Assembly: GCA_964415025.1 (NCBI GenBank)
Contig: CAYPXF010000005.1
Location: 1,484 to 65,483, forward strand
Reading direction: 5' to 3'
DNA: 64,000 nt
Source of the DNA: an uncultured Gammaproteobacteria bacterium
GTDB taxonomy: Bacteria; Patescibacteriota; Patescibacteriia; UBA10025; JAHIVO01
Position numbers and translations under genes: made by a program. How positions within the stretch are numbered: position 1 is the stretch's first letter; every line of letters starts with the position of its first letter. This document shows, piece by piece, positions 21,657 to 47,927 of the stretch. The notes beneath the pieces were generated by a model. It had not been told where the DNA came from. It saw nothing but the letters and a program-made list of their open reading frames with translations, and made no database searches.

Positions 21657-22811
21657 ATGGCAAAACCAACAAGTTATCTGGGTGTTGATCTAGGAGGATC
21701 CAGCCTAAAAATCGTCGAGCTCAAAAGCGTCAATAACAGACCGCAGCTGGTTACCTATGGTCTGATAGACGAGACATATAATATTATCAAGGATGACAGC
21801 GCGTCAGCCCGCGCCGAAGTAGCCCGGCATTTGAAAGAGCTGACGAAGAGTTCGCGTGTTTCGACTGATAAAGTGGTTTCAGCATTACCGAGCTATAGCG
21901 TCTTCAGCTCTATCATCAGCCTGCCGGCCATGAGCAAAAAAGAGTTGATATCAGCAGTGCGCTGGGAAGCCAAGAAATTCGTGCCTATTCCACTCGAAGA
22001 AATGATCCTGGATTGGGAAGTGCTGGAACAGGGAGAATCAGCGGAAGACACGCGCGGAGAACAAGCCGCCGAAGACGCGCACGATGACGAAGCAGAGGAA
22101 AAAGCCGCAGAAGAAGATTCAGACAAAGATCAAAAAAAGAAAAAACCATCAATGTCATCCGGTGACAAGAAATCGATAAAAGTGTTACTAACTGCCGCAC
22201 CAAAAAATTTAGTAAACCGCTATGTTGAGGTGTTTAAGCAAGTAGACCTCCAGCTGGTCGGATTAGAGACTGAATCGTTTGCCCTGGAGCGATGCCTAAT
22301 AGGCAATGATTCTTCTCCTATCATGATTATTGATATCGGCAACAACGCTACAAGTATTATAATATTCAGCGGCGGTGTTCCAATTCTGAATCGCAGTATT
22401 GATGTTGGAGGTGCCAGTATTTCTAATAAGCTCGTAGAAGTAATGGGGCTAAACCAGGAGCAGGCAGAGCAATATAAACGTGATATGGGCACTAGCATGG
22501 CCGGTCAAAAAATCAGCGATTTACCACAGCCTGTTGCCCATGTTGTTAATTCAGTGATTAATGAAATCCGCTATATATTGAATATTTATCAAAACCAAAA
22601 CCGCCAGCATATTAAAAAAATTATTTTAACCGGCGGGTCGGCATTTTTAGCTAACCTTACAGAAAATATAGAAGATGTGTTTAATATAAAGTCATTTGTC
22701 GGTGATCCATGGGCCAGGGTAGTGCATCCAGTGGAAATTGACGGATTGCTAAAGGGCCTAGGACCGAGAATGTCTGTCAGTATTGGCCTAGCCATGAGAG
22801 AAATCAGCTAA
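21657..22811 (+). CDS. pilM: type IV pilus assembly ATPase-fold protein PilM
   Basis: 384 aa; N-terminus MAKPTSYLGVDLGGSSLKIVEL (actin-like PilM/FtsA fold) with an acidic low-complexity insertion. Confidence 0.8.
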   Translation: MAKPTSYLGVDLGGSSLKIVELKSVNNRPQLVTYGLIDETYNIIKDDSASARAEVARHLKELTKSSRVSTDKVVSALPSYSVFSSIISLPAMSKKELISAVRWEAKKFVPIPLEEMILDWEVLEQGESAEDTRGEQAAEDAHDDEAEEKAAEEDSDKDQKKKKPSMSSGDKKSIKVLLTAAPKNLVNRYVEVFKQVDLQLVGLETESFALERCLIGNDSSPIMIIDIGNNATSIIIFSGGVPILNRSIDVGGASISNKLVEVMGLNQEQAEQYKRDMGTSMAGQKISDLPQPVAHVVNSVINEIRYILNIYQNQNRQHIKKIILTGGSAFLANLTENIEDVFNIKSFVGDPWARVVHPVEIDGLLKGLGPRMSVSIGLAMREIS

Positions 22812-26741: not shown

Positions 26742-28493
26742 ATGGAGCAAACACAACAACAAAAAAAACAATCAGCCATCCAGGTACTAATCGAGGAGGG
26801 GTTAGTGCCGACTGACCGCCTCGCCGAGATGAAAAAGCAGGCCAAGGACGAAGGAGAGCTGCTCGATCTTTTGAGTCGAAAAGGGATTGTTTCAGAGGAA
26901 GATATTACCAAGGCAAAAAGCAAAGTTCTGGGAGTTCCCTATATTGATTTATTTGGCAAATCTATTTCCCAGTCAGTGCTGCATATTATTCCCCGTGAGC
27001 TGGCGGATAATTATCATATTGTCGCTTTTGACAAGCAGGGCGATGAGGTGTCGGTAGCGATGGTTGATCCGGCTGATTTTAAGGCTATCGAAGCCTTGGA
27101 ATTCCTGGCCCGCGAAAATAATCTGAAAATAAAATACTATATTGTATCCATGAACGGCTTCCGTGAAGCGCATAAACAATACGCTACGCTGGGAGCAGAA
27201 GTAGAGGAAGCTCTTGCCAGTACTGAAAAGGAAGGCAAATCAGAGCTAGAGGAAATGTTATCCTCTGATAAGTCAGGCGAGGAAACGGTCAAGAGCGCTC
27301 CAGTATCAAAGATGGTTTCAGTCATCCTTAAACATGCTGTCGAGGGAGGCGCGTCGGATATTCATATCGAACCGGTGGAGAATGAAACCAGGGTGCGGTA
27401 TCGTGTCGACGGTGTACTGCACACCTCGCTGGTGTTGCCGCGCTATGTCCACTCATCAATTGTCGCCCGTATTAAGGTTATTTCAGATCTCAAGCTGGAT
27501 GAGACGCGTGTGCCGCAGGACGGGCGTTTCCGTACCGAGTGGGAAGGGCGTATTATCGATTACCGTGTTTCCACCCTGCCGCTGTTTAATAATGAAAAAG
27601 TGGTGATGCGTATTCTCGATCGCGCCGCGGTTGTTCTGGATCTAGAAAAACTTGGATTTGAGGGCGAGCATCTGGATGTCATGCGCGCATCGGTGAAGAA
27701 AACGGTCGGCATGATCCTGCTCACCGGTCCGACCGGATCTGGCAAATCCACCACCTTGTCCGCATTACTGACTATATTAAATAATGAAGAAACAAACATT
27801 ATCACTCTGGAAGATCCGGTCGAGTATTATATAGACGGCGTGAATCAGTCACAGATAAATACTGATGTCGGCCTCACCTTTGCTGCTGGTCTGCGCTCCA
27901 TCCTGCGTCAGGATCCTGATATTATCATGGTCGGTGAGATCCGTGATAATGAAACTGCCGAGCTGGCGGTACATGCCGCGCTGACCGGGCATTTGGTCTT
28001 GTCCACGCTCCATACTAACGACTCGTTTGGCGCTATACCCCGTATGATTGATATGAATATCGAACCGTTCCTGATTACCGCGGCGCTGAACACGGTGGTA
28101 GCCCAGCGGCTGGTCAGGCGACTCTGTCCGTACTGCCAAAAAGAAGCAAAGCTGCCAGAAGACCTCCAGCAATTCCTCGATAAGCAAATAAATCAAATCC
28201 CGCCAGAAATTATGGTCAAACGTTTTGGCAAGGAAAATCCAGAGCTGAAATTTTATGAAGCCGAGGGCTGTACTAAGTGTGAGAATACGGGCTACAAAGG
28301 ACGGGTGCTGATTGATGAAATATTAGAAGTAGACGAAGAGCTGAAAAACGTAGTGGTCACCAATCCGACTATTGATGCCATCCGCGAGACCGCTAAACGC
28401 CAGAATATGATTGCCATGGCCCAGGACGGCATTCTCAAGGCGCTGGACCGTAAAACGTCATTATCAGAAGTTCTCCGCGTGACCCAAGAATAA
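26742..28493 (+). CDS. pilB: type IV pilus extension ATPase PilB (GspE family)
   Basis: 583 aa; T2SSE_N-like N-terminus, Walker A LTGPTGSGKSTT, tetracysteine motif CPYC...CTKC. Confidence 0.9.
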   Translation: MEQTQQQKKQSAIQVLIEEGLVPTDRLAEMKKQAKDEGELLDLLSRKGIVSEEDITKAKSKVLGVPYIDLFGKSISQSVLHIIPRELADNYHIVAFDKQGDEVSVAMVDPADFKAIEALEFLARENNLKIKYYIVSMNGFREAHKQYATLGAEVEEALASTEKEGKSELEEMLSSDKSGEETVKSAPVSKMVSVILKHAVEGGASDIHIEPVENETRVRYRVDGVLHTSLVLPRYVHSSIVARIKVISDLKLDETRVPQDGRFRTEWEGRIIDYRVSTLPLFNNEKVVMRILDRAAVVLDLEKLGFEGEHLDVMRASVKKTVGMILLTGPTGSGKSTTLSALLTILNNEETNIITLEDPVEYYIDGVNQSQINTDVGLTFAAGLRSILRQDPDIIMVGEIRDNETAELAVHAALTGHLVLSTLHTNDSFGAIPRMIDMNIEPFLITAALNTVVAQRLVRRLCPYCQKEAKLPEDLQQFLDKQINQIPPEIMVKRFGKENPELKFYEAEGCTKCENTGYKGRVLIDEILEVDEELKNVVVTNPTIDAIRETAKRQNMIAMAQDGILKALDRKTSLSEVLRVTQE

Positions 28494-28511
28494 TTAATAT
28501 AATGGCACTCT

Positions 28512-28901
28512 ATGAATAAACAGAAGCAAACAACGAAAATACTGGTCGTCGAGGATGATAAATTTCTCGCCGGTATGTATAACACAAAGCTGGATCTCGA
28601 AGGGTTTTCCGTCATCGTGGCTAATGACGGCGAAGAAGGATTACGACTGGCTGAATCTGAAAATCCGACGATTATCCTGCTCGACATCATTTTACCGAAA
28701 ATGAGCGGGTTTGATGTGCTCAAATCGCTCAAAAAAAACGAGCAAACAAAAAAGATTCCCGTGATTTTACTGACAAACCTAGGCCAGCGCGATGACGTGA
28801 ATAAAGGGCTTGAGCTGGGCGCTGAAGATTACCTGATCAAAGCGCATTTCATGCCGTCTGAAGTTGTCGAAAAAATAAAAAAACTGGCGGGCAAAAAATA
28901 G
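28512..28901 (+). CDS. stand-alone response-regulator receiver (CheY-like REC) protein embedded between pilB and pilC
   Basis: 129 aa; KILVVEDDKFLAGMY...LLDIILPKMSGFDVL...LLTNLGQRDDV...GAEDYLIKA; no output domain. Confidence 0.8.
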   Translation: MNKQKQTTKILVVEDDKFLAGMYNTKLDLEGFSVIVANDGEEGLRLAESENPTIILLDIILPKMSGFDVLKSLKKNEQTKKIPVILLTNLGQRDDVNKGLELGAEDYLIKAHFMPSEVVEKIKKLAGKK

Positions 28902-28939
28902 TCTGCTAAAAACAAAGCAAATAAAAATTATACATAACC

Positions 28940-30145
28940 ATGGCCGAGTTTTTATACAAAGCACGAAACCAAGCTGGCAATGAAGTCAGCGGTGTTGTCA
29001 TGGCGCCGTCCGAAAATGTCGCCTATGGCATGCTGCGCGATAAAAACTTGTTTATTGTTTCGCTGAAGGAGAAAAAAACACTTGATATTCTGAAGGGGCT
29101 GAAGCTTTCCGGCGGCGTGAAGGCAAAAGACGTGGTAATATTTTCCCGGCAGCTGTCAGTGATGATGTCGTCTGACGTGCCGATTGTCCGGGCCCTGCGG
29201 GTGCTGATGCACCAGACTGATAATAAATACCTTAGCGAAGCGCTCGGCGACATAGCGGATGAAGTGGACGGCGGCGCCAAACTGTCCCAGGCCATGAAAA
29301 AATACCCAAAAATATTCAGTAATTTTTTCGTGCAAATGGTCCGGTCAGCGGAAACCACCGGACGTTTGGACGAAATTCTGGAGTATTTGGCAGACCAGGC
29401 GGAAAAAGACTATGACACGAGCAGCAAAGCGCGCGGTGCCATGATTTACCCGGCCTTTATCATCAGTGCCCTGGCGCTGGTCGGCGCGCTGATGATGATG
29501 TTTGTACTACCGCAGATTACCACGATTTTGACTGACAGCAACGTGGAATTGCCGATTACCACTCGGATTTTCATCGGCATCAGTGATATGCTGCGGGGGT
29601 ATTGGTGGGCCATACTGCTGGTTATCGGCGGACTATTATTTGGTTATCGCGCGGTAGTTAAAACTGCTGGCGGCCGCCGGTTTGTTGATATTGTGAAAAT
29701 CAGGATGCCGATATTCGGCCCGATATTTAATAAAACGTATTTGACGCGGTTCTCGCGTTCTTTATCCACCCTGCTTGCATCCGGTGTGACCCTGACGCGG
29801 TCGCTGGATATTGTGGCGGATGTTGTCGGCAATACGTTATATAGAGAAATTACCCAGCAAACCATAAAAGAGGTAGAGGCTGGCCGGTCGATCACCACTG
29901 TCTTTGTCCGGCAAAAGGAAGTACCACTCATGCTGGCGCAAATGATGAGCGTGGGGGAGCAGTCTGGTCAGCTGGATAAAATACTGGAAAAAATAGCTGA
30001 TTTTTACACGCGCGAGCTGGATAATTCTCTGCGTAATCTAACCACTCTGATCGAGCCGATCATCATGGTGGTGATGGGCGTGGCTGTCGGCTTCCTCGTG
30101 TCGGCAATTATTTTACCGATGTATAATTTATCTAATGCTATATAA
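28940..30145 (+). CDS. pilC: type IV pilus platform protein PilC (GspF family)
   Basis: 401 aa; two GspF repeats, three TM segments. Confidence 0.85.
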   Translation: MAEFLYKARNQAGNEVSGVVMAPSENVAYGMLRDKNLFIVSLKEKKTLDILKGLKLSGGVKAKDVVIFSRQLSVMMSSDVPIVRALRVLMHQTDNKYLSEALGDIADEVDGGAKLSQAMKKYPKIFSNFFVQMVRSAETTGRLDEILEYLADQAEKDYDTSSKARGAMIYPAFIISALALVGALMMMFVLPQITTILTDSNVELPITTRIFIGISDMLRGYWWAILLVIGGLLFGYRAVVKTAGGRRFVDIVKIRMPIFGPIFNKTYLTRFSRSLSTLLASGVTLTRSLDIVADVVGNTLYREITQQTIKEVEAGRSITTVFVRQKEVPLMLAQMMSVGEQSGQLDKILEKIADFYTRELDNSLRNLTTLIEPIIMVVMGVAVGFLVSAIILPMYNLSNAI

Positions 30146-30173: not shown

Positions 30174-30202
30174 TTGACATTTTGCTAAAAATATGATATT
30201 AT
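30174..30202 (+). promoter_or_regulatory. sigma70-like promoter for pilA (TTGACA-17 nt-TATTAT)
   Basis: consensus -35 and good -10 with 17-nt spacer, ~180 nt upstream of pilA. Confidence 0.55.
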
Positions 30203-30384: not shown

Positions 30385-30837
30385 ATGAAACGAAAAGGTT
30401 TTACACTCATTGAATTATTGGTTGTTATTGCCATTATCGGTATTTTGGCCACGATTGGTCTGGTCGCCCTGAACGGTGCCCGGGAAAAAGCTCGTGATGC
30501 CACCAGAAAATCTGACCTCGGTCAGATTCGTACTGGTTTAGTATTGTATTCTGATGATTATGGCAGCACCTATCCAAATACCAGCGGCGTAGCTTCTACT
30601 GCATTAAGCGCATTGGCGCCTACATATATCACTCGTGTTCCGGACGATCCACAAAGCCCAACTCGTGATTATTATTACGCATCATGTGGTAGCGGCATAG
30701 CATCACCATTTTATGTGTTGTATGCTCAATTAGAATCACCAGAGGCTAGCGGCCATTATTATTGGATAATGGGTGATGGTACTTCAGACGATGATTACAC
30801 AACTGGTGTACCAAGTTGTACTTCAACACCAGATTAG
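30385..30837 (+). CDS. pilA: major type IV pilin (class III signal peptide, C-terminal disulfide loop)
   Basis: ATG at 30385 after AGGGGG RBS; MKRKG/FTLIELLVVIAIIGILATIGL prepilin leader and N-methylation site with Glu5; C-terminal Cys pair; the ORF track start at 30319 is probably too early. Confidence 0.85.
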   Translation: MKRKGFTLIELLVVIAIIGILATIGLVALNGAREKARDATRKSDLGQIRTGLVLYSDDYGSTYPNTSGVASTALSALAPTYITRVPDDPQSPTRDYYYASCGSGIASPFYVLYAQLESPEASGHYYWIMGDGTSDDDYTTGVPSCTSTPD

Positions 30838-30855
30838 TAGATAATACTAATATAC

Positions 30856-30890
30856 AAAAGCGCTTCTTGTTGTAGGGGCGCTTTTTGTTT
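30856..30890 (+). terminator. rho-independent terminator after pilA
   Basis: AAAAGCGC...GCGCTTTTT hairpin plus T-run. Confidence 0.55.
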
Positions 30891-30938
30891 TATATATAGT
30901 TCGCAGTAAAGGATAATGGGTGGTATTTTGTAGTATGA

Positions 30939-31053
30939 CTTACGCGGTTAAACTTTCAATTGTACCGAACGAGGGGAGCCCAGGCGAAAGCCTGCATAGG
31001 CTATCTTGTTATCAGTACACGCTTTCGCGTGGTCTCCAAGCGGACCGCGTAAG
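30939..31053. ncRNA. candidate structured RNA / cis-regulatory leader (~115 nt) between pilA and the glycosyltransferase gene
   Basis: perfect 10-bp long-range helix CTTACGCGGT (30939-30948) / ACCGCGTAAG (31044-31053) enclosing hairpins AGCC-CAGGC-GAAA-GCCTG-GGCT (GNRA loop) and CACGC-TTTC-GCGTG; family not identified. Confidence 0.4.
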
Positions 31054-31182
31054 CCGTGTGTTGTCTTGAGTATTTCTATTTTAGAAACAAACAACTGTGT
31101 AGGAGAACGGTTTTGATTATCAAAAAAAACAATAACCTCCTTCTCATTGCTCGAAGGCGACTTCTTTTGTTATAATAAAAAT

Positions 31183-32169
31183 ATGATTGACACATCCATC
31201 ATCATCCTTAACTGGAATGGTCGCGAGCATTTGGAGACGTGCTTACAATCCGTGTTATCGCAGTCGTATAAACAATTCCGCGTGATTGTAGTAGATAATG
31301 GTTCTGATGATGGGTCTGTTGATTTTGTGAAAAAAAACTATCCTGATATTGAAATTATAATAAATAATAAAAACCTGGGATTTGCCGAGGGGAATAATAT
31401 TGGCATCAGAAGGGTGCTGAAGGATAAAAATATTCGATTTATTGCCACACTGAATAATGATACAGAAGTTAAAGTTGATTGGTTAGAAGCGTTAATTACG
31501 TTAATCAAGACTGACGATAACATTGGGGCAGTATCAAGTAAAATGCTATGGTTTGATAAGCGCGATGTGATAGATTCTACCGGTGATTATTTCTTACCGA
31601 GAACGCTGAAAGTGGTCACCCGCGGGTATAAGGAAAAAGACACCGGCCAATATGACAGGGAAGAGGAATGTTTGGCGGCCCGGGCCGGAGCGGCGCTGTA
31701 CCGGCGGGACATGCTGGAGGATATCCGGCTGGGGACTGATTTTTTTGACAAGAAGTTTTTCGCGTATATCGAGGATATAGACCTGTCCATCCGAGCCCGA
31801 TTGCGCGGCTGGAAAATCATGTACGCGCCGCACGCCGTGGTCTACCATAAGGTAGCGGCCACGACCAAACGGATTTCCTACGTGTTCCGCCGTTACCAGT
31901 CAGGCCGCAACCGGATATTTGCCGCAATTAAGAATTATCCAATTCACTGGTGGCCATTTGTATGGCGCGGACGGGAGTCGGTGGACAGCGATTACCGATT
32001 AGGTACTGGAGAAAATCTGAAATTATATTTAAAAATAGTAGGTTCTCTCATAGTAAACATGCCGCGCTTGCTGATCCAGCGGAATATTATCCAGGAGCGG
32101 AAAACTATTACCTATCAGGAGATGAAAAAATGGCGGGAGCAGTTAGTTGTCCACCGTAAACAGGACTGA
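31183..32169 (+). CDS. family 2 glycosyltransferase
   Basis: IILNWNGREHLETCLQSVLSQSY...FRVIVVDNGSDDGS GT-A fold signature; start at 31183 preferred over the ORF-track 31147. Confidence 0.75.
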   Translation: MIDTSIIILNWNGREHLETCLQSVLSQSYKQFRVIVVDNGSDDGSVDFVKKNYPDIEIIINNKNLGFAEGNNIGIRRVLKDKNIRFIATLNNDTEVKVDWLEALITLIKTDDNIGAVSSKMLWFDKRDVIDSTGDYFLPRTLKVVTRGYKEKDTGQYDREEECLAARAGAALYRRDMLEDIRLGTDFFDKKFFAYIEDIDLSIRARLRGWKIMYAPHAVVYHKVAATTKRISYVFRRYQSGRNRIFAAIKNYPIHWWPFVWRGRESVDSDYRLGTGENLKLYLKIVGSLIVNMPRLLIQRNIIQERKTITYQEMKKWREQLVVHRKQD

Positions 32170-32240
32170 ATAGTCTTTTTTTGCTTTTGGTTGGTGTCTG
32201 TACAGTGGAGAAGACTATTTTTTTTTGCTATACTATTTGT

Positions 32241-34229
32241 ATGATTCTCGACCGGATTTCCGAACAAATAAATTCGTTTCGCCGCAATGTAATCGTGGGA
32301 ATTTTTTTATTTTTAGTCGTGTTTAGCTCACTTTTTTCCGGTGAATGGAATAACTGGGTCGTGAGCGTCCTGCTCATCCTGTCGTTCCCGCTGGTGTTTT
32401 TCATGATCATGGTCATCCGGGACGCGGCGCATAAACCGATACTTCGGTTTTCAGCCAGGTCACCGCTACTATATCTCATACTTTTCCTGCTGGTGGCTGT
32501 CATCAGCGGATTGTTTTTTTCTAGTGCTCCGCTGGCCAGTTTGCACCAGGCCAGCCAGTTGATGGGCTATGCTATTATTTTTCTGGTGGCCGGATTAATA
32601 CTGCGTGATTTTGGCCGGATCAAATTCATGAGCTGGATTATATTCAGTACCGGTGTACTGGCTGCGGTTATTAATATCATTCTGTTTGCCACAGATCCTA
32701 CAGTCCGGGCCGGCGGATTACTGCTCAATGCCAATGCCCTGGGCAGTTATGTATTGTTTAGCCTAGGACTCGGCATTACCCTGCTTCTCAAACCAACGCA
32801 AAAAAAAACAAAAGTACTTGTACTTGGAGGGACCGGCCTTATCGGATTAAGTTTTTTGCTCACGTTTTCCTATACTGGCTGGGTTAGTTTTATCCTGCCG
32901 CTCTTGATATATGCTTTTGCTTTTAAAACACAGCTTTTTCAGAGAAAAAAGGTTATCAGTTTTATTCTGGTGGTTATCACCGTTGTTGCCGCGGCGATTG
33001 GATTCCGCTATATGAGTACTGGTAATTTCAGCCAGGCCGTGCAGCTGCATAAAACAATCACTGCTGAAGCAGCGCAAACAAGTTTTTCCCAGCGATGGAA
33101 TTTTGTTATTTCATCTGGCGAAATATTTCTGGATAATCCGGTTATTGGGACGGGGCTGAATACATTCCAAAATATTTATCCGCAATACGCGCATACGCTG
33201 ATAGAACAGCCGCGGTACGCGCATAACTACTATTTGCAAACCGCGGCCGAGCTCGGGATATTCGGTTTCGCGGCTTTTACCGGGTTTGTGGTCCTGCTGC
33301 TACGGACCAGCTACCGGGTTATGAAAAGGGCTTTCCCAGATCCAGAAAAGCGGTATTATCTTACCGGGCTCGGATTAGGGCTGCTGGCTTCATGTATTCA
33401 CGCGGCGGTGGATTTTGGCTGGCGGTTTCCCGGTGTTTTTATCCTATTTTGGTTAATTGGCGGCATGTTCTGGGGACAGTCACTGCCGGTAGTATCGAGT
33501 GACCAGGCCAAGCCAAAGCGCAGTACGGTTAAAAATATCGCGACCGGCCTATTGCTGTTGATTGGTTTGGCGCTGTTAGTACGAGGCGTCACGTTATTTA
33601 TGAGTCAGGCGTATTTTGATAAAGGTCAGCGTGCAGCAGATCGTGATGAGCGGATAACAGCTCTGGCCGCTTATGAACAGGCGATACTGTTCAATCCATT
33701 GTCTGATACTGTCCGGGCCTATGCTGACATGGTTATTAACCAGCCGCCGCTTGATACTGCTGAACGACAAAATGCGTACACACAGGCAGAGACGTATTTA
33801 TTAGAATTCCGCAGCCGTAATACGATTGATTATTTTATTCCGTCGTCACTCGGCAGACTTCATATCGTGCTGGATGAGTATGATGATGCCGCGGCCTATT
33901 ACCAGGAGGCGATTTCCCTGGATCCGGTATTTCATCCCCGTTTTTACTATGACCTGGCGTTTATTTATTTTCAGCAAGGGGAGTATGAGAAAGTTTTCAG
34001 TACTACCTCTGGGATTATAGATACGTACGAAGGTATTGCCCGGACTTCAAATCCAAATCTGCCCCGGGATCTGGCTTTTCTCCACGCCCTCCGGGCTGAA
34101 GCTCATCTGGAACAGGGCGATACACAGGCCGCCATCGCGGAGTATATGAACGCGCTGGAACGCGAACCAGAATTTAGTATAGCTATCGAGGCATTAGCCG
34201 AACTGACTGGTGAATCAGGCAGTGAGTAG
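32241..34229 (+). CDS. O-antigen ligase (Wzy_C) domain membrane protein with C-terminal TPR repeats; candidate pilin O-oligosaccharyltransferase (PglL/TfpO-like)
   Basis: ~12 TM helices; Wzy_C motif YAHNYYLQTAAELGIFGF; C-terminal TPR-like repeats; sits directly downstream of pilA and the GT2 gene; ATG at 32241 preferred. Confidence 0.65.
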   Translation: MILDRISEQINSFRRNVIVGIFLFLVVFSSLFSGEWNNWVVSVLLILSFPLVFFMIMVIRDAAHKPILRFSARSPLLYLILFLLVAVISGLFFSSAPLASLHQASQLMGYAIIFLVAGLILRDFGRIKFMSWIIFSTGVLAAVINIILFATDPTVRAGGLLLNANALGSYVLFSLGLGITLLLKPTQKKTKVLVLGGTGLIGLSFLLTFSYTGWVSFILPLLIYAFAFKTQLFQRKKVISFILVVITVVAAAIGFRYMSTGNFSQAVQLHKTITAEAAQTSFSQRWNFVISSGEIFLDNPVIGTGLNTFQNIYPQYAHTLIEQPRYAHNYYLQTAAELGIFGFAAFTGFVVLLLRTSYRVMKRAFPDPEKRYYLTGLGLGLLASCIHAAVDFGWRFPGVFILFWLIGGMFWGQSLPVVSSDQAKPKRSTVKNIATGLLLLIGLALLVRGVTLFMSQAYFDKGQRAADRDERITALAAYEQAILFNPLSDTVRAYADMVINQPPLDTAERQNAYTQAETYLLEFRSRNTIDYFIPSSLGRLHIVLDEYDDAAAYYQEAISLDPVFHPRFYYDLAFIYFQQGEYEKVFSTTSGIIDTYEGIARTSNPNLPRDLAFLHALRAEAHLEQGDTQAAIAEYMNALEREPEFSIAIEALAELTGESGSE

Positions 34230-34278: not shown

Positions 34279-34761
34279 ATGAAACGAGGTTTTACATTAG
34301 TTGAACTGCTTATCACTATTTCCATCATTGGCATTTTGGCCGTACTGGGATTAGTGAGCCTGCAGGGTGCCCGTGCTTCGGCCAGGGATTCGCGCCGCAT
34401 TTCTGATCTGGCGCAGCTACGGCTCGGCTTAATGCTGTACTATGATGACCACCAACAATTTCCCATGCCGGTAGCCAACGGCCATGACGGACCAGACACC
34501 AGCGTCAGTACCACGACCGGAACAATTTTTTCGGATACTGACAATCCCCTGTATCCCAGGTATTTGAGCGCTCCGTTTGTAGATCCAAATAATAATGGCG
34601 CAACCGGCCACTATTATTACTATGATACTAACCAAAATACCGGGCATAATAATTATGTCTTGTGTTTTCATAAAGAAGGAGATGATCAACGATGGTTTTA
34701 TTTTTATTCTACCGGGATTTACGGCGAAGGGGATGCGTGCCCCACATTACCCGGCAGCTAA
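34279..34761 (+). CDS. type IV pilin paralog
   Basis: MKRG/FTLVELLITISIIGILAVLGL class III leader with Glu5; 160 aa. Confidence 0.8.
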   Translation: MKRGFTLVELLITISIIGILAVLGLVSLQGARASARDSRRISDLAQLRLGLMLYYDDHQQFPMPVANGHDGPDTSVSTTTGTIFSDTDNPLYPRYLSAPFVDPNNNGATGHYYYYDTNQNTGHNNYVLCFHKEGDDQRWFYFYSTGIYGEGDACPTLPGS

Positions 34762-34775: not shown

Positions 34776-35195
34776 ATGTTTAAATCAGAACACGGCTTAT
34801 CGCTAATCCAAATCCTCATCCTGGTGGCTGTGTTTGGTTTACTGATCGGCGGCGGGTTTTTATTGCTTAATAATGAAAAAGCCAAGACCAGGGATGCTAA
34901 GCGGCTATCTGATATTACCAGAATTCAGGCCGCGTTTGAATTTCTGTACAATCAAACAGCCAGTTATACCGCGGCCGCGCAGGACGGGTGCGATCAAGCC
35001 GGTATGCTGGCAAGCCAATGTAATTTAAGCGCATATATCCCGGCCATCAGGCAGTTCCGTGATCCGGGCAAGTATCAGTATGTAGTCACTACGGTGCCGG
35101 GCGATGATGCCTATGCCGTCACCTTTCAGCTGGAAAAGGAATACTATAATCTGACGGCAGGCCAGCACGTGCTGACCCAGGACGGGATACAGTAA
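34776..35195 (+). CDS. pilin-like protein with non-canonical leader (Gln at +5)
   Basis: MFKSEHG/LSLIQILILVAVFGLLIGGG; prepilin-like hydrophobic N-terminus lacking Glu5; C-terminal Cys pair. Confidence 0.55.
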   Translation: MFKSEHGLSLIQILILVAVFGLLIGGGFLLLNNEKAKTRDAKRLSDITRIQAAFEFLYNQTASYTAAAQDGCDQAGMLASQCNLSAYIPAIRQFRDPGKYQYVVTTVPGDDAYAVTFQLEKEYYNLTAGQHVLTQDGIQ

Positions 35196-35331: not shown

Positions 35332-36084
35332 ATGATAGGTTTTTTGGTGTTTGTTTTTGGACTGGTCATCGGCAGTTTTCTAAACGCGGTGATTTATCGT
35401 ATTCATGCCCGGGTCAGTTTTCTCCGCGGGCACTCGTTTTGTCCGGGCTGCCGTCATGACCTGCATGCGGCAGATTTGATACCGGTGTTCAGCTTCCTCT
35501 GGCAGCGCGGTAAGTGCCGATACTGCCACCAGCCTATTTCCTGGCAATACCCGCTCGTAGAAACAGCGACCGCGCTGATATTTTTTATGCTTTACGTGCA
35601 GTTTGGTTTGAGCGCGCAGTTTTTCGTGTATCTGGTTTATGCGGGATTTTTGATAGTTTTGTTTGTGTATGACCTGCGGTATTATCTCATTCCTGATCGG
35701 GTTTCCCTGCCGGGTATTATCGTCGCCTTTATCCTGTCATATTTTATCCTGGATATCGGCATTTTTAGCCTGATGGCCGGTACGCTGATCGGCGGCGGGT
35801 TTTTCCTGCTGCAATACGCGGTTTCCCGGGGCAGATGGATCGGCGGCGGCGACATCAGGCTGGGCGCGCTTATGGGCATGATGCTGGGCTGGCCGCAGGT
35901 AGTCGCTGCCCTGTTTATCGCGTATGTGACCGGTTCGATCGTGGGTATTTTTCTGATTGTATTGCGACAGAAAAAATGGCAGAGCCAGGTGCCGTTTGGC
36001 ACTTTTTTAACCGGGGCTACTGTGGTTACGTTTTTTTTCGGACCGCAGATAATTGATTTTTACCGGGATTTATTTTTGTTATGA
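35332..36084 (+). CDS. pilD: prepilin peptidase PilD (A24 family)
   Basis: N-terminal tetracysteine motif CPGC...CRYC; multiple TM helices; conserved Asp-containing loops. Confidence 0.85.
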   Translation: MIGFLVFVFGLVIGSFLNAVIYRIHARVSFLRGHSFCPGCRHDLHAADLIPVFSFLWQRGKCRYCHQPISWQYPLVETATALIFFMLYVQFGLSAQFFVYLVYAGFLIVLFVYDLRYYLIPDRVSLPGIIVAFILSYFILDIGIFSLMAGTLIGGGFFLLQYAVSRGRWIGGGDIRLGALMGMMLGWPQVVAALFIAYVTGSIVGIFLIVLRQKKWQSQVPFGTFLTGATVVTFFFGPQIIDFYRDLFLL

Positions 36085-36767
36085 AATACCGAACCGGATT
36101 TACCCTAACCGAACTGCTCATCTCTATCAGCATATTATCCCTGCTGACGATCATTATCATGGCAAACTTCCAGCACGGCCGGCGGGTGCAGGAATTGCGC
36201 CGGGCCGGCACCGAGCTGTCTCAGAATTTCCGGCTGGCCCAGAGCTATACTATCGGCGGCAATAGCGTTAATTTTTGCGATGTAAACAGCGATGATGATG
36301 CGTACCATCCGTGTATCAATGATGCAGCATGTGATGCAGGCAATGGCGAGTGTATTAATTCAGTGCCGCCAGGCGGGTATGGCATCCATCTCGGCTCTCC
36401 GTCAAGTTATAAATTATTCGGCGATACAGTCGACGATAATATATATGACACTGATCAGACTGATTACCTTGTCTTGGATAAATATTATACTGACCAGGGA
36501 ATTTCCTTTGTCCAATACAAATTAGGCGATGAAGCCGCGGTCGTGCCATCAGCCAGTGAATACCTAGATATAGTTTTTGAGCCGCCGGTAGGCACGATTA
36601 CCTTTTATCACAATGGCATCGAAGCAACCGACACTAGCACTGGACAGCTTATCAATGTAGCGCGCATATTAGTCGCCAGCAGTTTTGTGGATGAGCAATG
36701 CCGGACAATTACTATTAACAGGGTCTCTGGCCAGGTCAGCGAAGATCAGAGCGCCTGCAGTCTATAA
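36081..36767 (+). CDS. minor pilin (FimT/PilE-like)
   Basis: ATGA start/stop overlap with pilD; MKYRTG/FTLTELLISISILSLL leader. Confidence 0.75.
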   Translation: MKYRTGFTLTELLISISILSLLTIIIMANFQHGRRVQELRRAGTELSQNFRLAQSYTIGGNSVNFCDVNSDDDAYHPCINDAACDAGNGECINSVPPGGYGIHLGSPSSYKLFGDTVDDNIYDTDQTDYLVLDKYYTDQGISFVQYKLGDEAAVVPSASEYLDIVFEPPVGTITFYHNGIEATDTSTGQLINVARILVASSFVDEQCRTITINRVSGQVSEDQSACSL

Positions 36768-36770
36768 CGT

Positions 36771-37385
36771 ATGCGTATATATAAAGATAACCGAGGACAA
36801 AGTTTAGTGGAGCTGTTAGTCGCCCTGTTTATTTTAATTGTTGCCATCACCGCTACCATTGTTTTGATCGTGACCAGTATCAATGCCGGCCGGGACAGCC
36901 GCGACAAACTGGTCGGTACTAATCTGGCCCGCGAAGCGCTGGAAATAGTGCGCAATATCCGTGACAGCAATTGGACTGATCCGACTGCTGCTGACTGGCA
37001 CGAAGGGCTGACCGGCGGTAACACGGCCGTGCCGATTATCGATGGTGCGAGTGCATTCAGTCTTGATTTTACGGTAAGTGATTTTACCGATACCACGTGG
37101 ACCAGACTGCGGGAAACAGGCGGAGCGTTTGTACAGGATAGTGCTGATACCGGGAATTCCAGGTATTACCGCATGCTGTATATTAATCCAATCTGCCGGG
37201 ACGCGGCTGGTGATGACAATATTGCCACTGATTTGGATAATACTGATGCCTGCGGTAATGGGGTTCATACTGGCTATCCCCAGGAAGTTGGTCTGCGCGT
37301 CATAGCTGAAGTGCGGTATCCCAGCGCTGATTCTGATAAAAAAGTGCAGCTCGAGGAGCGGCTGTATGATTGGCAAGTTTTATAA
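36771..37385 (+). CDS. minor pilin (PilV-like)
   Basis: MRIYKDNRGQ/SLVELLVALFILIVAIT prepilin leader. Confidence 0.7.
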   Translation: MRIYKDNRGQSLVELLVALFILIVAITATIVLIVTSINAGRDSRDKLVGTNLAREALEIVRNIRDSNWTDPTAADWHEGLTGGNTAVPIIDGASAFSLDFTVSDFTDTTWTRLRETGGAFVQDSADTGNSRYYRMLYINPICRDAAGDDNIATDLDNTDACGNGVHTGYPQEVGLRVIAEVRYPSADSDKKVQLEERLYDWQVL

Positions 37386-37450
37386 ACAATTACCAATTTT
37401 CAATCAACAATTTCCAAGTAAGCCCCAATTTCTAATGTTCTAATACTCAA

Positions 37451-38182
37451 ATGAATTTTTCTAGGAATAATAAAGGATTTACCTTGATCGAGATGCTGAT
37501 CGCGCTGTCGATTTTTATTCTGGTCATGCTGGCCGGAGTCAATGTCTACTTCGTCATCAGCACGGCCCAGCACCGGACCGTGGCCCTGCAAAAAGTGCAG
37601 GATGACGTGCGGTATTTGTACGAGGCCATGGCCCAGGAAATCAGGCTCGGCACTATCAATTATACTTTTTACGATACAGAGAACATCAGCCTGCATCCGA
37701 ACATAAGCGGCGATGGAATAACTTCAATACTAGCACTCCAGGACCAGTTACATGTGCCGGTGTATTACCGTTTGCAGGGGACAGCGGTGCAATACTGCCG
37801 GGTAGACGATAGCGCTAGTATTGACTGTGATCTGACTGATCATGACCAGTGGCAAAATGTGACGCCCTCCGGGGTCGAGGTTACGAGCCTGGGATTTTTC
37901 ATCACCCCAAGTGCTGATCCGTTTGTTAATGCCGGAGAAGCGGTTGATTGTTCGAGCGGAGGACAAGCTGATTGCGATGTCTCATACCGCTGCGATGCCG
38001 GCGCAACCAACACTTGCTTATACTACAGTGACGGAAATAATTTTCAACCAAAAGTACAGATGCAGCTGACGGCCCGGGCGCTTGATAGCCGCATACCAGA
38101 GGAATCGCGCACGCTTCATTTCCAGACAATGGTTTCATCCAGAATTTTTCAGGGCCAAATCCAAAACAATAATTATGAGTAA
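37451..38182 (+). CDS. minor pilin (PilW-like)
   Basis: MNFSRNNKG/FTLIEMLIALSIFILVML prepilin leader. Confidence 0.75.
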   Translation: MNFSRNNKGFTLIEMLIALSIFILVMLAGVNVYFVISTAQHRTVALQKVQDDVRYLYEAMAQEIRLGTINYTFYDTENISLHPNISGDGITSILALQDQLHVPVYYRLQGTAVQYCRVDDSASIDCDLTDHDQWQNVTPSGVEVTSLGFFITPSADPFVNAGEAVDCSSGGQADCDVSYRCDAGATNTCLYYSDGNNFQPKVQMQLTARALDSRIPEESRTLHFQTMVSSRIFQGQIQNNNYE

Positions 38183-39533
38183 ACATTATTCACAACGCGG
38201 TTCTGTCTTATTGTATTCACTGCTGGTGATTACACTGCTGACGGCTATTGCCATCACCGTATCTATTATCGTGGTTAATGAGATCAAGCTAAGCGCGGCC
38301 TCGGCTAATGCAACCATGGCGTATTATGCGGCCGAGTCAGGCATAGAGCGCGGATTATATGAAGTAAAAATAAACCGTGACAGTGCCGCTCTTACATCGA
38401 CACTGAATACGATTCAGGGCTTCACCGCTGACCATGATTTTGTTAATAATGCTGATTATGCCAACGATCAGTCTGATCAAGAAAGCTCCTCCATCACTAA
38501 CGAGTTTATCGTCCATAATAACTATACCCAGGCTGATTATTATGATGTCGATGATCCGTTGGATACGACGCTGCCAGATAATACGATAGTCAAATCAATC
38601 GAAATAAAAAATGGCGATACTACAAACCCTGATTCCAGCTCGTGGGCAGAAGTATCCTGGACTGCCTGGGATGATTCGGGCACATTACTGGCGTCAGACA
38701 GAGCCAGAAAAATTATCGGACCAAGCGATCTGGAAGATCCGGGCTGGACAATAAATGATTTGGATGTTTTCGACGGTGATCCGGTTGGTTACCGCATCCG
38801 TATCCGGGCCCTATTTGGCGACCTTTCATCACTTACCGTAGTGCCGTATGACACGTTTGGTTCGCAGATAACTGACCAGCTGCCATCTCACATCCGCATC
38901 AAGTCAGTGGGTGAGCGTAATAACTTTAAGCAGTCGTTGACCGCCACGGTGCCGTGGAAAGTGCCGCTGTTTGGTTTGTATGACTATGTGCTGTTCAGCG
39001 AAGGGGAAATTATGAAGACAATTATCTTGAGCCAGCCGGTGTATAGTTCTGGAACCATCGGGGTAGAGGAGGATAATACAACGGCTGGTTTATGTACAAA
39101 CTGTGCCGGCGGTAGCTCATGTGCAGATGAAGGATGGCTGGCCACATCATGCAGTCTTACTGCCTCATGCACGATCCAGGCGGCGCCTAACCCATCGTAT
39201 TGTTCGCTACCGAGCGCTGTAGATTCATTCACATTGCCGATTCCTGATGAAGTATCGGCCGGACCAGAGTTTTATATCAGTCTGCGGGAAAAGGCTACTT
39301 CTGGTACAAGTCTGGAACTAAATATCAGTGATCCGATAGAGGGTGATCTGGGTTTGGTGCACGATATTCCGGCGGACAGTGATTGGCAGACGTGCACGAT
39401 TGCCGAGTCATTCCCCTTGAGCGGGGAAACAGGACGGAGTATCATGTTCAGCAACAGGAGCGCAAATAATATAGACATTGACTGGTACCAGATCAGCTCG
39501 TATAAGATATTTGATGACTGTGAGGGAAGTTAG
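38175..39533 (+). CDS. PilX-like minor pilin / pilus tip protein
   Basis: ATG at 38175 overlaps the previous stop (ATGA); MSKHYSQRGSVLLYSLLVITLLTAIAIT...AYYAAESGIE matches the PilX N-terminal domain; the ORF-track start at 38082 would overlap the upstream gene. Confidence 0.7.
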   Translation: MSKHYSQRGSVLLYSLLVITLLTAIAITVSIIVVNEIKLSAASANATMAYYAAESGIERGLYEVKINRDSAALTSTLNTIQGFTADHDFVNNADYANDQSDQESSSITNEFIVHNNYTQADYYDVDDPLDTTLPDNTIVKSIEIKNGDTTNPDSSSWAEVSWTAWDDSGTLLASDRARKIIGPSDLEDPGWTINDLDVFDGDPVGYRIRIRALFGDLSSLTVVPYDTFGSQITDQLPSHIRIKSVGERNNFKQSLTATVPWKVPLFGLYDYVLFSEGEIMKTIILSQPVYSSGTIGVEEDNTTAGLCTNCAGGSSCADEGWLATSCSLTASCTIQAAPNPSYCSLPSAVDSFTLPIPDEVSAGPEFYISLREKATSGTSLELNISDPIEGDLGLVHDIPADSDWQTCTIAESFPLSGETGRSIMFSNRSANNIDIDWYQISSYKIFDDCEGS

Positions 39534-45505: not shown

Positions 45506-45579
45506 TCGGGGTGGCGGGACTTGAACCCGCGACCTCACGCACCCCATGCGTACGCGCTAGCCAACTGCGCTACACCCCG
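45506..45579 (-). tRNA. tRNA-Pro (anticodon GGG), 74 nt, no encoded CCA
   Basis: revcomp folds as acceptor CGGGGTG/CACCCCG, D arm GCGC-AGTTGGCTA-GCGC, anticodon stem TACGC/GCGTG with loop AUGGGGU (GGG at 34-36, G37), T arm GCGGG-TTCAAGT-CCCGC. Confidence 0.85.
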
Positions 45580-47912: not shown

Positions 47913-47927
47913 GAACCATTCAATATT

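What the first reader, a model, noticed from the sequence alone, without database searches (positions are those of the whole stretch)
30385..34229. Probable pilin O-glycosylation module: pilA - GT2 - Wzy_C/TPR oligosaccharyltransferase
The major pilin gene is followed by a family-2 glycosyltransferase and a ~660-aa polytopic protein with an O-antigen-ligase (Wzy_C) motif (YAHNYYLQTAAELGIFGF) plus C-terminal TPR repeats. PglL (Neisseria) and TfpO/PilO (Pseudomonas) pilin O-oligosaccharyltransferases are Wzy_C proteins encoded next to pilA. A second pilin gene follows immediately.
Basis: partly seen in the sequence, partly recalled or inferred. Interest (0 to 1): 0.65.

Follow-up and report, generated by a model that had tools for sequence, protein, structure and literature searches.

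The report
Pilus-operon glycan transferase in ultrasmall bacteria
Inside the type IV pilus operon of an ultrasmall (Patescibacteria/CPR) bacterium, wedged between pilin genes, sits a membrane enzyme of the O-antigen-ligase superfamily with an outward-facing TPR domain, usually with a family-2 glycosyltransferase beside it; it most likely attaches sugars to the pilus subunits, an expected kind of system that has not been described in these bacteria.

Summary
The genes are pilin (30385-30837), GT2 (31183-32169), a 662-aa Wzy_C+TPR protein (32241-34229), then a second pilin (34279-34761). They lie in a complete type IV pilus (T4P) operon of a Patescibacteria genome.

Evidence for a link to pili:
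- Orthologues (28-47% identity) sit between pilin genes in about 26 distinct CPR loci, in several gene orders.
- A full-length homologue (hhalign E 6e-34) sits in the T4P operon of Bacillota.
- More distant Wzy_C proteins lie in ordinary polysaccharide clusters instead.

Evidence on the enzyme:
- The AlphaFold model (pLDDT 87) shows 13 TM helices. All invariant residues and the TPR domain face outward.
- The only solved relative is the WaaL ligase 7TPG (profile E 6e-11).
- WaaL Arg265 and His313 are kept as R285 and H328. Arg191 is Tyr/Phe/Leu/Val in all CPR members examined, with a CPR-specific R256 nearby.
- PglL motifs are absent.

The GT2 is optional: present in about 13 loci and absent in about 11. 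It stays next to the Wzy_C gene, once in swapped order. A different GT2 is fused to Wzy_C-TPR in other CPR proteins.

Best reading (confidence about 0.6): a pilin O-oligosaccharyltransferase of a distinct, unnamed family. Acceptor, glycan and activity are inferred, not shown.

The parts
30174..30202 (+). sigma-70-like promoter upstream of the major pilin gene (TTGACA, 17 nt, TATTAT, with an extended -10 TG)
   Evidence: (11 of 12 matches). This is a consensus match only.
30385..30837 (+). pilin1, the probable major type IV pilin (150 aa). It is the candidate acceptor.
   Evidence: N_methyl E 1.7e-9. The first ~55 mature residues are almost invariant across 13 orthologues, and the globular part is hypervariable with indels. 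It has its own promoter and terminator.
30856..30885 (+). intrinsic-terminator-like hairpin (12-bp stem followed by a T-run) directly after pilin1
31183..32169 (+). family-2 (GT-A) glycosyltransferase, 328 aa. It is soluble/cytoplasmic and is an optional partner of the Wzy_C gene.
   Evidence: PF00535 E 2.3e-25. Orthologues are 54-63% identical, with invariant D38, D93 and E197-D198-x-D200. It is present in ~13 and absent in ~11 related loci. In L035 it follows the Wzy_C gene instead of preceding it.
32241..33593 (+). Membrane domain of the Wzy_C/TPR protein (residues 1-451). It consists of a 12-TM WaaL-like core plus a 13th TM helix. The Wzy_C Pfam match is residues 200-346 (nt 32838-33278). 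The 81-residue outer loop 257-337 carries R285, G303, G305 and H328.
33594..34229 (+). Extracytoplasmic TPR-like domain of the same protein (residues 452-662; ten helices forming five hairpins), followed by the stop codon.
   Evidence: TPR Pfam hits at 537-655. Helices and pLDDT >90 in the AF2 model. The domain is conserved in the Bacillota homologue.
34279..34761 (+). pilin2 (160 aa), with C-terminus ...CPTLPGS. It is a candidate acceptor.
   Evidence: N_methyl E 6e-7. Orthologues end in CPTLP followed by GS, GT, TT, AT or nothing.
34776..35195 (+). pilin3-like protein (139 aa) with a prepilin-like N-terminus but no Glu5. It lies downstream of the Wzy_C gene in both CPR clades, either immediately after it or after one intervening pilin gene.
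   Evidence: No Pfam hit. The alignment of 16 orthologues shows a conserved C-terminus H-x-L-[ST]-x-x-G-I-[KRQ]. Synteny is shown.
35332..36084 (+). PilD prepilin peptidase (operon context)
   Evidence: A24_N_bact E 4e-32 and Peptidase_A24 E 4.6e-15
26742..30145 (+). PilB ATPase (26742-28493), single-domain response regulator (28512-28901) and PilC platform protein (28940-30145): operon context upstream
36081..39533 (+). four minor pilin genes (36081-36767, 36771-37385, 37451-38182, 38175-39533): operon context downstream
   Evidence: N_methyl hits and a weak PilX_N hit. They are conserved in all close loci.

Best explanation
The 662-aa protein is a pilus-dedicated O-oligosaccharyltransferase of the WaaL/GT-C(B) superfamily.

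Proposed mechanism:
1. A glycan is assembled on undecaprenyl pyrophosphate at the cytoplasmic face. The initiating enzyme and the flippase are encoded elsewhere. Where the neighbouring GT2 is present, it adds or alters a sugar.
2. The lipid-linked glycan is flipped to the outer face.
3. There the 12-TM core binds the diphosphate through R285, probably helped by the CPR-specific R256 and/or R156.
4. H328 activates a Ser/Thr hydroxyl of a membrane-anchored prepilin or pilin.
5. The TPR domain, placed outside by the extra 13th TM helix, docks the pilin.
6. The glycosylated pilin is then assembled into the pilus.

Shown here: the fold, the topology, the conservation of outward-facing residues, and the conserved embedding among pilin genes.

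Inferred: the donor, the acceptor (pilin1, pilin2 and/or pilin3), the role of the TPR domain and the role of the GT2.
For: Fold and family:
- Wzy_C scores 82 bits against a cutoff of 31.7.
- The AF2 model has pLDDT 87.4 and pTM 0.87.
- The only solved membrane match is WaaL 7TPG, with Foldseek E 5.7e-5 and TM 0.63. The TM-domain profile gives E 6e-11 over residues 56-411.

Catalytic residues:
- R285 aligns with WaaL R265 (E. coli R288). H328 aligns with H313 (E. coli H338).
- Both are invariant down to homologues of 22-30% identity, as are R156, N163, N165, S210, G303, G305, D391, W394 and P397.

Topology:
- K/R-rich even-numbered loops are inside. All invariant residues and the TPR domain are outside.

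Gene context:
- The gene is flanked by pilin genes in about 26 distinct CPR loci with three different layouts.
- The same holds in Bacillota (Ca. Formimonas warabiya and a Dehalobacterium-like contig). That protein is a full-length homologue, prob 99.9%, E 6e-34.
- Negative control: the more remote Wzy_C proteins P0032, P0034 and P0036 lie in GT4/Bac_transf/Wzz/flippase clusters, not in T4P operons.

Coupling to the GT2:
- The GT2 stays adjacent to the Wzy_C gene even when the order is swapped (L035).
- GT2-Wzy_C-TPR fusion proteins exist in Patescibacteria (P0091, P0109).

Precedent:
- Pilin-adjacent Wzy_C O-OTases are known: TfpO, PglS, TfpM and many PglL homologues.
- describes the predicted Gram-positive S-layer O-OTase WsfB as carrying a C-terminal TPR motif.
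Against: - No biochemical or mass-spectrometric evidence exists. Pilin as the acceptor rests on gene context only.
- The first Und-PP-binding Arg (CmWaaL R191, E. coli R215, PglL R224) is Tyr/Phe/Leu/Val in all Patescibacteria members examined. The compensation by R256 is a hypothesis.
- PglL-specific motifs are absent.
- No consistent acceptor sequon was found. A C-terminal Ser/Thr on pilin2 occurs in only about 5 of 15 orthologues.
- The 64-kb window holds no initiating phosphoglycosyltransferase, flippase or sugar-nucleotide genes, so a donor pathway is unverified.
- Within the close clade the whole neighbourhood, including LigA, is syntenic. Synteny there alone is therefore weak evidence. 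The argument rests on the divergent clades.
Confidence: 0.6

Rival explanations
1. It is a general protein O-oligosaccharyltransferase, like Neisseria PglL or Burkholderia PglL. It would modify many surface proteins, possibly including the giant surface proteins encoded upstream, with pilins as only one class of substrate.
For: PglL-type enzymes are often pilin-adjacent yet have a broad substrate range. Large putative surface proteins lie at 2587-21490 in the same window. The Wzy_C+TPR architecture is widespread: more than 100 full-length 50%-identity cluster representatives. Their gene contexts could not be checked.
Against: The PglL motifs are absent. The gene is embedded strictly between pilin genes, and next to PilD in Bacillota, which suggests a dedicated role.
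Confidence: 0.15
2. It is a ligase or polymerase for a cell-surface glycopolymer (WaaL-, Wzy- or TuaE-like). It would attach or polymerise a polysaccharide on a lipid or cell-wall acceptor. Its place in the pilus operon would reflect co-regulation, or pilus-dependent polysaccharide export, rather than pilin modification.
For: Its only solved relative is a polysaccharide ligase. CAZy GT121 members occur in Gram-positives with unknown acceptors. A GT2 is adjacent. The GT2 gives weak NCBIfam hits to EPS and hormogonium-polysaccharide GT2s, far below cutoff.
Against: The window has no initiating transferase, flippase, chain-length regulator or export genes. Remote homologues that do sit in such clusters form a different group. 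The GT2 is dispensable in about 11 loci. An LPS acceptor is not expected in Patescibacteria (general knowledge).
Confidence: 0.13
3. It is a non-catalytic pilus assembly or stability factor. The TPR domain would act like the PilF/PilW/TadD scaffolds, and the polytopic domain would serve only as a membrane anchor.
For: TPR proteins are recurrent T4P assembly factors. The TPR domain gives weak hits to PilW and Tgl (E about 0.005-0.008, below cutoff). One canonical catalytic Arg is lost in all CPR members examined.
Against: About 15 outward-facing residues are invariant, including the acceptor-activating His and the second Arg, across 22-47% identity. The gene is accessory: the Saccharibacteria T4P study consulted never uses the terms 'O-antigen' or 'ligase'. 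The GT2 adjacency and the GT2 fusions point to glycan chemistry.
Confidence: 0.07

Closest known systems
TfpO (PilO) of Pseudomonas aeruginosa 1244 and Acinetobacter, and TfpM of Moraxellaceae (pilin-specific O-oligosaccharyltransferases)
   Same: Both are Wzy_C-superfamily polytopic enzymes encoded directly beside their cognate type IV pilin gene. In loci without the GT2, the gene here immediately follows pilin1. A catalytic His in the Wzy_C region is present in both: TfpM H286 and H328 here.
   Different: TfpO and TfpM are 420-460 aa, lack a TPR domain, come from Gram-negative Gammaproteobacteria and use the pilin's C-terminal Ser/Thr. This protein is 662 aa with a 13th TM helix and an outer TPR domain, comes from a Patescibacteria genome, and has no consistent C-terminal Ser/Thr on its pilins.
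PglL/PglO (Neisseria) and PglS (Acinetobacter baylyi) O-oligosaccharyltransferases
   Same: The Wzy_C core is shared. Residues equivalent to PglL R298 and H349 are present, and the P-x-x-G-x-G spacing (PglL P313, G316, G318; P300, G303, G305 here) is kept. Many PglL homologues are pilin-adjacent. (review PMC2943079) describes PglL as having a C-terminal TPR motif.
   Different: The PglL_A motif (PF15864) is not detected in 10 members at E<=10. The equivalent of PglL R224 is not Arg. The phylum and envelope type differ.
WsfB of Paenibacillus alvei (and WsaB of Geobacillus), the predicted S-layer O-oligosaccharyltransferases of Gram-positive bacteria
   Same: Both are monoderm bacteria. WsfB has the same domain plan of Wzy_C plus a C-terminal TPR motif, which is proposed to mediate protein-protein contact with the acceptor.
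   Different: WsfB lies in an S-layer glycan gene cluster and is assigned to the S-layer protein. This gene lies in a T4P operon between pilin genes. Sequence relatedness to WsfB was not tested.
WaaL O-antigen ligase (Cupriavidus metallidurans, PDB 7TPG; E. coli K-12 WaaL)
   Same: It is the only solved structure matching the membrane domain. The 12-TM core with a large outer loop is shared, as are the R265 and H313 equivalents.
   Different: WaaL has no 13th TM helix or TPR domain. Its acceptor is lipid A-core, which Patescibacteria are not expected to make. The R191 equivalent is missing here. The hhalign match to E. coli WaaL is weak (prob 15%).
WadA of Brucella and Mesorhizobium (bimodular GT25-GT121 O-antigen ligase)
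   Same: It is a precedent for coupling a soluble glycosyltransferase physically to a WaaL-type ligase. Patescibacteria have analogous GT2-Wzy_C-TPR fusions (P0091, P0109). In this window the two are separate neighbouring genes.
   Different: The GT family differs (GT25 versus GT2). WadA acts on the LPS core. The fused GT2 is only 21% identical to the window's GT2.

Membership tests
WaaL/O-antigen-ligase superfamily (Pfam Wzy_C PF04932; CAZy GT121-like, GT-C(B) fold) | Wzy_C domain scoring above Pfam's gathering threshold | tested here: met
   82.3 bits against a cutoff of 31.7, E 4e-23. All 10 family members tested also score 65-84 bits.
WaaL/O-antigen-ligase superfamily (Pfam Wzy_C PF04932; CAZy GT121-like, GT-C(B) fold) | 12-TM core with a long extracytoplasmic loop, structurally similar to WaaL (7TPG) | tested here: met
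   AF2 pLDDT 87.4. Foldseek against 7tpg_B gives E 5.7e-5 and TM(target) 0.63. The TM-domain profile hits only 7TPG in the PDB, E 6e-11. Topology is shown.
WaaL/O-antigen-ligase superfamily (Pfam Wzy_C PF04932; CAZy GT121-like, GT-C(B) fold) | second phosphate-binding Arg (CmWaaL R265, E. coli R288) and acceptor-activating His (CmWaaL H313, E. coli H338) | tested here: met
   R285 and H328 align to these residues in two independent alignments. Both are invariant in 28+18 sequences.
WaaL/O-antigen-ligase superfamily (Pfam Wzy_C PF04932; CAZy GT121-like, GT-C(B) fold) | first phosphate-binding Arg (CmWaaL R191, E. coli R215, PglL R224) | tested here: not met
   It aligns to Y211, which is Y, F, L or V in all Patescibacteria members examined. 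The Bacillota homologue keeps Arg in 'LTGSRGS'. A CPR-specific R256 at the outer end of TM9 may substitute; this was not tested.
Genuine WaaL (LPS O-antigen ligase) | lipid A-core acceptor and an LPS core or O-antigen gene context | tested here: not met
   No LPS or polysaccharide genes are in the 64-kb window. The gene lies in a T4P operon in all loci. The absence of LPS genes genome-wide could not be checked.
PglL-type O-oligosaccharyltransferase (Schulz et al. 2013) | PglL_A motif (Pfam PF15864) | tested here: not met
   No hit in 10 family members at E<=10. PF11846 is also absent from the listed hits.
PglL-type O-oligosaccharyltransferase (Schulz et al. 2013) | PglL_B motif (residues 171-201 of NMA0800, with Q178 and N180) | not testable with these tools
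   No public HMM is available in the libraries here. The family has an N163-x-N165 motif in the equivalent outer loop, but I recall similar N-x-N motifs in other Wzy_C proteins (not checked), so I do not count it as PglL-specific.
TfpO/TfpM pilin-specific O-oligosaccharyltransferases | gene immediately adjacent to the cognate pilin gene | tested here: met
   The gene is flanked by pilin genes in all loci. It lies directly after pilin1 where the GT2 is absent: L001, L004, L005, L043, L044.
TfpO/TfpM pilin-specific O-oligosaccharyltransferases | size of about 420-460 aa with no extra domains | tested here: not met
   The protein is 662 aa with a 13th TM helix and a TPR domain.
TfpO/TfpM pilin-specific O-oligosaccharyltransferases | acceptor is the C-terminal Ser/Thr of the pilin | tested here: inconclusive
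   Pilin2 ends in Ser here and in Ser/Thr in about 5 of 15 orthologues. Pilin1 ends in Asp here and its C-terminus is variable.
Any O-oligosaccharyltransferase | demonstrated en-bloc transfer of a lipid-linked glycan to protein Ser/Thr | not testable with these tools
   This needs bioconjugation assays or glycoproteomics. [quoted passage not shown]
WsfB-like Gram-positive O-OTase | Wzy_C plus a C-terminal TPR motif in a monoderm organism | tested here: met
   the feature is described
WsfB-like Gram-positive O-OTase | sequence homology to WsfB and location in an S-layer glycosylation cluster | not tested
The context here is a T4P operon, not an slg cluster.
Wzy-type polymerase of a Wzx/Wzy pathway | co-location with an initiating phosphoglycosyltransferase, a Wzx flippase and a Wzz co-polymerase | tested here: not met
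   None is present in the window. By contrast the remote homologues in L026-L028 do have them.
Glycosyltransferase family 2 (GT-A), for gene 31183-32169 | PF00535 domain above threshold and conserved acidic motifs | tested here: met
   89.9 bits against a cutoff of 23.3. D38, D93 and E197-D198-x-D200 are invariant in 11 orthologues. No NCBIfam equivalog reaches its cutoff, so the sugar and acceptor specificity are unknown.

The most novel reading that the evidence does not exclude
Wzy_C-TM13-TPR proteins embedded in T4P operons form an unnamed, fifth class of pilin-dedicated O-oligosaccharyltransferases. The class would be confined to monoderm lineages (Patescibacteria and Bacillota).

In this reading:
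- The extracytoplasmic TPR domain is the pilin-docking module.
- The CPR branch has moved the Und-PP-binding arginine from TM8 (position 211) to TM9 (R256).
- The exchangeable, sometimes fused, GT2 partner diversifies the glycan.

CPR pili, the organelles these episymbionts use to find and hold their hosts, would then be sugar-coated and variable in that coat.
Probability: 0.45. Interest if true: 0.6.

Novelty: new variant of a known kind. Interest (0 to 1): 0.45.

Why it matters
Type IV pili are among the few conserved surface machines of Patescibacteria. In cultivated Saccharibacteria they drive host attachment and motility. There, pilin glycosylation has only been guessed from a sequence predictor, and no enzyme has been named.

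A dedicated transferase inside the pilus operon would give a concrete, testable route to glycosylated CPR pili. Such glycans could affect host recognition, phage evasion and antigenic variation.

It would also extend pilin O-glycosylation from Gram-negative Proteobacteria to monoderm phyla. It would provide a new, TPR-bearing O-OTase scaffold for glycoengineering.

The apparent relocation of a diphosphate-binding arginine is a small but testable structure-function question for the WaaL superfamily.

Tried and rejected
1. Full-length sequence search against the PDB returned only TPR proteins. It had to be repeated with a TM-domain profile.
3. PglL_A and Wzy_C_2 motifs were searched at E<=10 in 10 members and not found. 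PglL membership was rejected.
4. hhalign against E. coli WaaL is weak (prob 15%). It was used only because its catalytic-residue alignment agrees with the stronger CmWaaL alignment.
5. I looked for an initiating transferase, a flippase and sugar-nucleotide genes across the whole window. None was found, so the donor pathway is unresolved.
6. I looked for a conserved acceptor sequon. The C-terminal Ser/Thr on pilin2 is inconsistent. There is a conserved Ser in G-x-G-x-S near the pilin1 C-terminus and a conserved [ST] six residues from the pilin3 C-terminus. These are suggestive only.
I ran no further search on it.
8. Rfam and tRNA scans found nothing relevant in the 345-bp pilin1-GT2 spacer.
9. 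Reference sequences of TfpO, PglL, PglS, TfpM and WsfB could not be obtained; no supplements are held. Direct phylogenetic placement was therefore not possible.
10. Five literature searches found no description of an O-antigen-ligase-like gene in CPR or Gram-positive T4P operons. The library is incomplete, so this is not proof of absence.
11. P0058, which is 30% identical to the Bacillota protein, sits in a mobile-element context without T4P genes. The T4P link therefore does not hold for every Wzy_C-TPR protein.

Full report
**What is there**

- A 150-aa prepilin, 30385-30837 (N_methyl E 1.7e-9).
- A 328-aa family-2 glycosyltransferase, 31183-32169 (PF00535 E 2.3e-25).
- A 662-aa polytopic protein, 32241-34229. 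Its Wzy_C domain spans residues 200-346 (E 4e-23, 82 bits against a cutoff of 31.7). C-terminal TPR repeats span 537-655.

A second prepilin follows at 34279-34761. A third pilin-like gene without Glu5 follows at 34776-35195.

The module is the centre of a complete type IV pilus operon:
- PilM 21657-22811, then PilN/O-like genes.
- PilB, a single-domain response regulator, and PilC.
- The module itself.
- PilD 35332-36084 and four minor pilins.
- LigA.

Pilin1 has a near-consensus promoter (30174-30202) and a 12-bp-stem terminator-like hairpin (30856-30885). This is the usual arrangement for a highly expressed major pilin.

Named homologues are all from Patescibacteria, and one is from a Candidatus Kerfeldbacteria chromosome.

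**Is the arrangement more than chance?**

The database search, the GTDB genome scan and the JGI metagenome scan together gave about 26 distinct loci with orthologues of the 662-aa protein at 28-47% identity. I mapped every locus with the window's proteins as BLASTP queries. Wherever a flank exists, the gene is flanked by pilin genes.

In the close clade (34-47% identity) the whole neighbourhood is collinear, including LigA and, where called, GatC. That synteny alone says little about function. Three other observations carry the argument:

1. A second Patescibacteria clade (28-30% identity; L020-L023, L038, L041) has a different operon. It has an extra PilT-like ATPase, no GT2 and other minor pilins. 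It still places the gene between pilin genes.
2. A 25%-identical protein lies in the T4P operon of Bacillota, between PilD and three pilin genes. The organisms are a Dehalobacterium-like contig and the complete genome of Ca. Formimonas warabiya. It is homologous over its full length, TPR domain included (hhalign prob 99.9%, E 6e-34, 608 columns).
3. As a negative control, the next more remote Wzy_C proteins (P0032, P0034, P0036) lie in ordinary polysaccharide clusters. Those clusters hold GT4s, Bac_transf, Wzz and a flippase, with no pilus genes.

The link is not universal. P0058 is in a mobile-element context.

**The enzyme**

An AlphaFold2 model built on 28 homologues is confident (pLDDT 87.4, pTM 0.87). 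It shows 13 transmembrane helices followed by ten helices that form a TPR-like solenoid.

Topology follows from the positive-inside rule. K/R-rich loops alternate cleanly, which places the N-terminus inside. The short loops 1-2, 3-4, 5-6, 7-8 and 11-12, the 81-residue loop 9-10 and the whole TPR domain fall outside.

Every family-invariant residue of the membrane domain lies on those outer loops or at their membrane boundary: E35, W39, S94, R156, N163, N165, S210, R285, G303, G305, H328, N329, E337, D391, W394 and P397. Most persist in the 22-30% identical T4P-linked homologues.

The only solved structure that matches the membrane domain is the WaaL O-antigen ligase 7TPG. Foldseek gives E 5.7e-5 and TM 0.63. 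A profile of the TM domain finds it alone in the PDB, at E 6e-11 over residues 56-411.

In that alignment:
- R285 matches WaaL R265, which binds an Und-PP phosphate.
- H328 matches H313, the proposed acceptor-activating base.
- An independent but weak hhalign against E. coli WaaL gives the same pairing with R288 and H338. These correspond to R298 and H349 in Neisseria PglL.

The third canonical residue, WaaL R191 (E. coli R215, PglL R224), aligns to Y211. That position is Tyr, Phe, Leu or Val in every Patescibacteria member examined. The Bacillota homologue keeps the canonical S-R-G.

Conversely, R256 at the outer end of the neighbouring helix TM9 is near-invariant in Patescibacteria and absent in Bacillota. 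I read this as a possible relocation of the phosphate-binding arginine. That is an inference and is untested.

**The GT2**

Its orthologues are 54-63% identical, which is better conserved than the Wzy_C protein. The acidic motifs D38, D93 and E197-D198-x-D200 are invariant. No NCBIfam equivalog reaches its cutoff, so the specificity is unknown.

The gene is facultative. It is present in about 13 loci and absent in about 11, including all of the second clade and Bacillota.

When present it is always next to the Wzy_C gene. In L035 it follows that gene instead of preceding it.

Other Patescibacteria encode single polypeptides of GT2 + Wzy_C + TPR (P0091, 988 aa; P0109, 962 aa). The GT2 sits at the N-terminus, which is the cytoplasmic side in the topology above. 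That GT2 is only 21% identical to the one here. The fusion therefore supports a general coupling of a cytoplasmic GT2 step to this ligase type. It does not support orthology.

**Mechanism proposed**

1. An Und-PP-linked glycan is built in the cytoplasm. The initiating transferase and flippase are not in this window. The GT2 adds or changes a sugar where it is present.
2. The glycan is flipped to the outer face.
3. The Wzy_C core transfers it en bloc to a Ser/Thr of a membrane-anchored pilin before assembly. The outer TPR domain holds the pilin.

Which pilin is modified is open:
- Pilin1 has a conserved Ser in a G-x-G-x-S motif near its variable C-terminus.
- Pilin2 ends in Ser here, but in Ser/Thr in only about 5 of 15 orthologues.
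- Pilin3 has a conserved Ser/Thr six residues from its C-terminus.

I put this explanation at about 0.6.

Rivals:
- A general O-OTase (0.15).
- A surface-glycopolymer ligase or polymerase co-regulated with pili (0.13).
- A non-catalytic TPR scaffold (0.07).

**Comparison with known systems**

It works like the pilin-adjacent O-oligosaccharyltransferases TfpO, TfpM, PglS and many PglL homologues. In domain plan it resembles the predicted Gram-positive S-layer O-OTase WsfB, which also combines Wzy_C with a C-terminal TPR motif.

It is not a member of the PglL family as defined, because the PglL_A motif is absent in 10 members at E<=10. It does not fit TfpO or TfpM in size or in the C-terminal sequon.

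A genuine WaaL role is not supported by context, and Patescibacteria are not expected to have LPS (general knowledge).

Five literature searches found no description of such a gene in CPR or Gram-positive pilus operons. The Saccharibacteria T4P study only predicts pilin O-glycosylation with a web predictor and names no enzyme.

The architecture itself is common. There are 1636 cluster representatives at E<=1e-30 and more than 100 full-length ones among the best 150.

**Verdict**

The T4P-linked, outward-facing, WaaL-superfamily glycosyltransferase is well supported. Pilin as acceptor, the donor and the GT2's role are inferred.

I class it as a new variant of a known kind, and the prediction is unsurprising to a specialist. 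It matters mainly because it gives a testable handle on pilus glycosylation in CPR bacteria and other monoderms.

Interest 0.45.

Noticed in passing
window 2587-21490 (+): Four consecutive very large ORFs (944, 1290, 827 and 3236 aa) lie directly upstream of pilM. Pfam hits are sparse: Kelch/Reg_prop repeats, fn3 and DUF6923. They are probably giant surface or adhesin proteins and could be further glycosylation substrates.
   Followed up: partly
window 28512-28901 (+): A single-domain response regulator sits between pilB and pilC. It is conserved at 64-76% identity in every Patescibacteria locus mapped, including the divergent clade. This suggests a built-in regulator of pilus extension.
   Followed up: partly
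window 34776-35195 (+): The pilin3-like protein has a prepilin-type hydrophobic N-terminus but no Glu5 (G|LSLIQ) and no Pfam hit. It lies downstream of the Wzy_C gene in both CPR clades, immediately after it or after one pilin gene. Its C-terminus is highly conserved: H-x-L-[ST]-x-x-G-I-[KRQ].
   Followed up: partly
residues 211 and 256 of the protein encoded at window 32241-34229: The canonical WaaL/PglL arginine in the 'S-R-G' motif at the start of TM8 is Tyr/Phe/Leu/Val in all Patescibacteria members examined but is retained in the Bacillota homologue. An arginine at the outer end of TM9 (G-[FV]-R-Y) shows the opposite pattern. This may be a relocation of a catalytic residue.
   Followed up: partly
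P0091 (988 aa) and P0109 (962 aa); also P0133, P0170, P0181, P0193, P0201; P0178 and P0188: Patescibacteria encode GT2-Wzy_C-TPR fusion proteins. Other relatives carry two Wzy_C domains in tandem plus TPR. Two are FolD-Wzy_C polypeptides, which may be fused gene calls. Their gene contexts could not be examined.
   Followed up: partly
L029 (CP017634.1, Ca. Formimonas warabiya) 2075-16307; L006: Bacillota T4P operons (PilB-PilT-PilC-2 pilins-PilD-Wzy_C/TPR-pilins-PilX-like-PilMNO) contain a full-length homologue of the CPR protein. The five literature searches run did not find this described.
   Followed up: yes
L007 7225-7809 (+): In one relative an IS200-like Y1 transposase gene (PF01797 E 1.5e-11) is inserted between the GT2 and the Wzy_C gene.
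   Followed up: yes
L035 7001-10150: In this relative the order is pilin1, Wzy_C/TPR, GT2, pilin2, so the GT2 lies after the ligase. The operon also carries a PilT-like ATPase that the window lacks.
   Followed up: yes
window 46700-57900: This is a low-GC stretch (GC 0.31-0.38, against about 0.48 elsewhere). It holds an aminotransferase, two GAF proteins, a methyltransferase, a 7TM-GAF histidine kinase, several single-domain response regulators and an AbiEii-type toxin. A tRNA-Pro lies just upstream at 45506-45579. It may be an acquired island.
   Followed up: no
window 30838-31182: The spacer between pilin1 and the GT2 is 345 bp here but only about 65 bp in L002. Apart from the terminator hairpin it gives no Rfam match.
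   Followed up: partly
window 58952-62826 (+): A DUF411/glutaredoxin-like protein, a DsbA-like thioredoxin-fold protein and a P-type ATPase lie together. A DsbA-like oxidase would be relevant to the conserved Cys pairs in the pilins.
   Followed up: no
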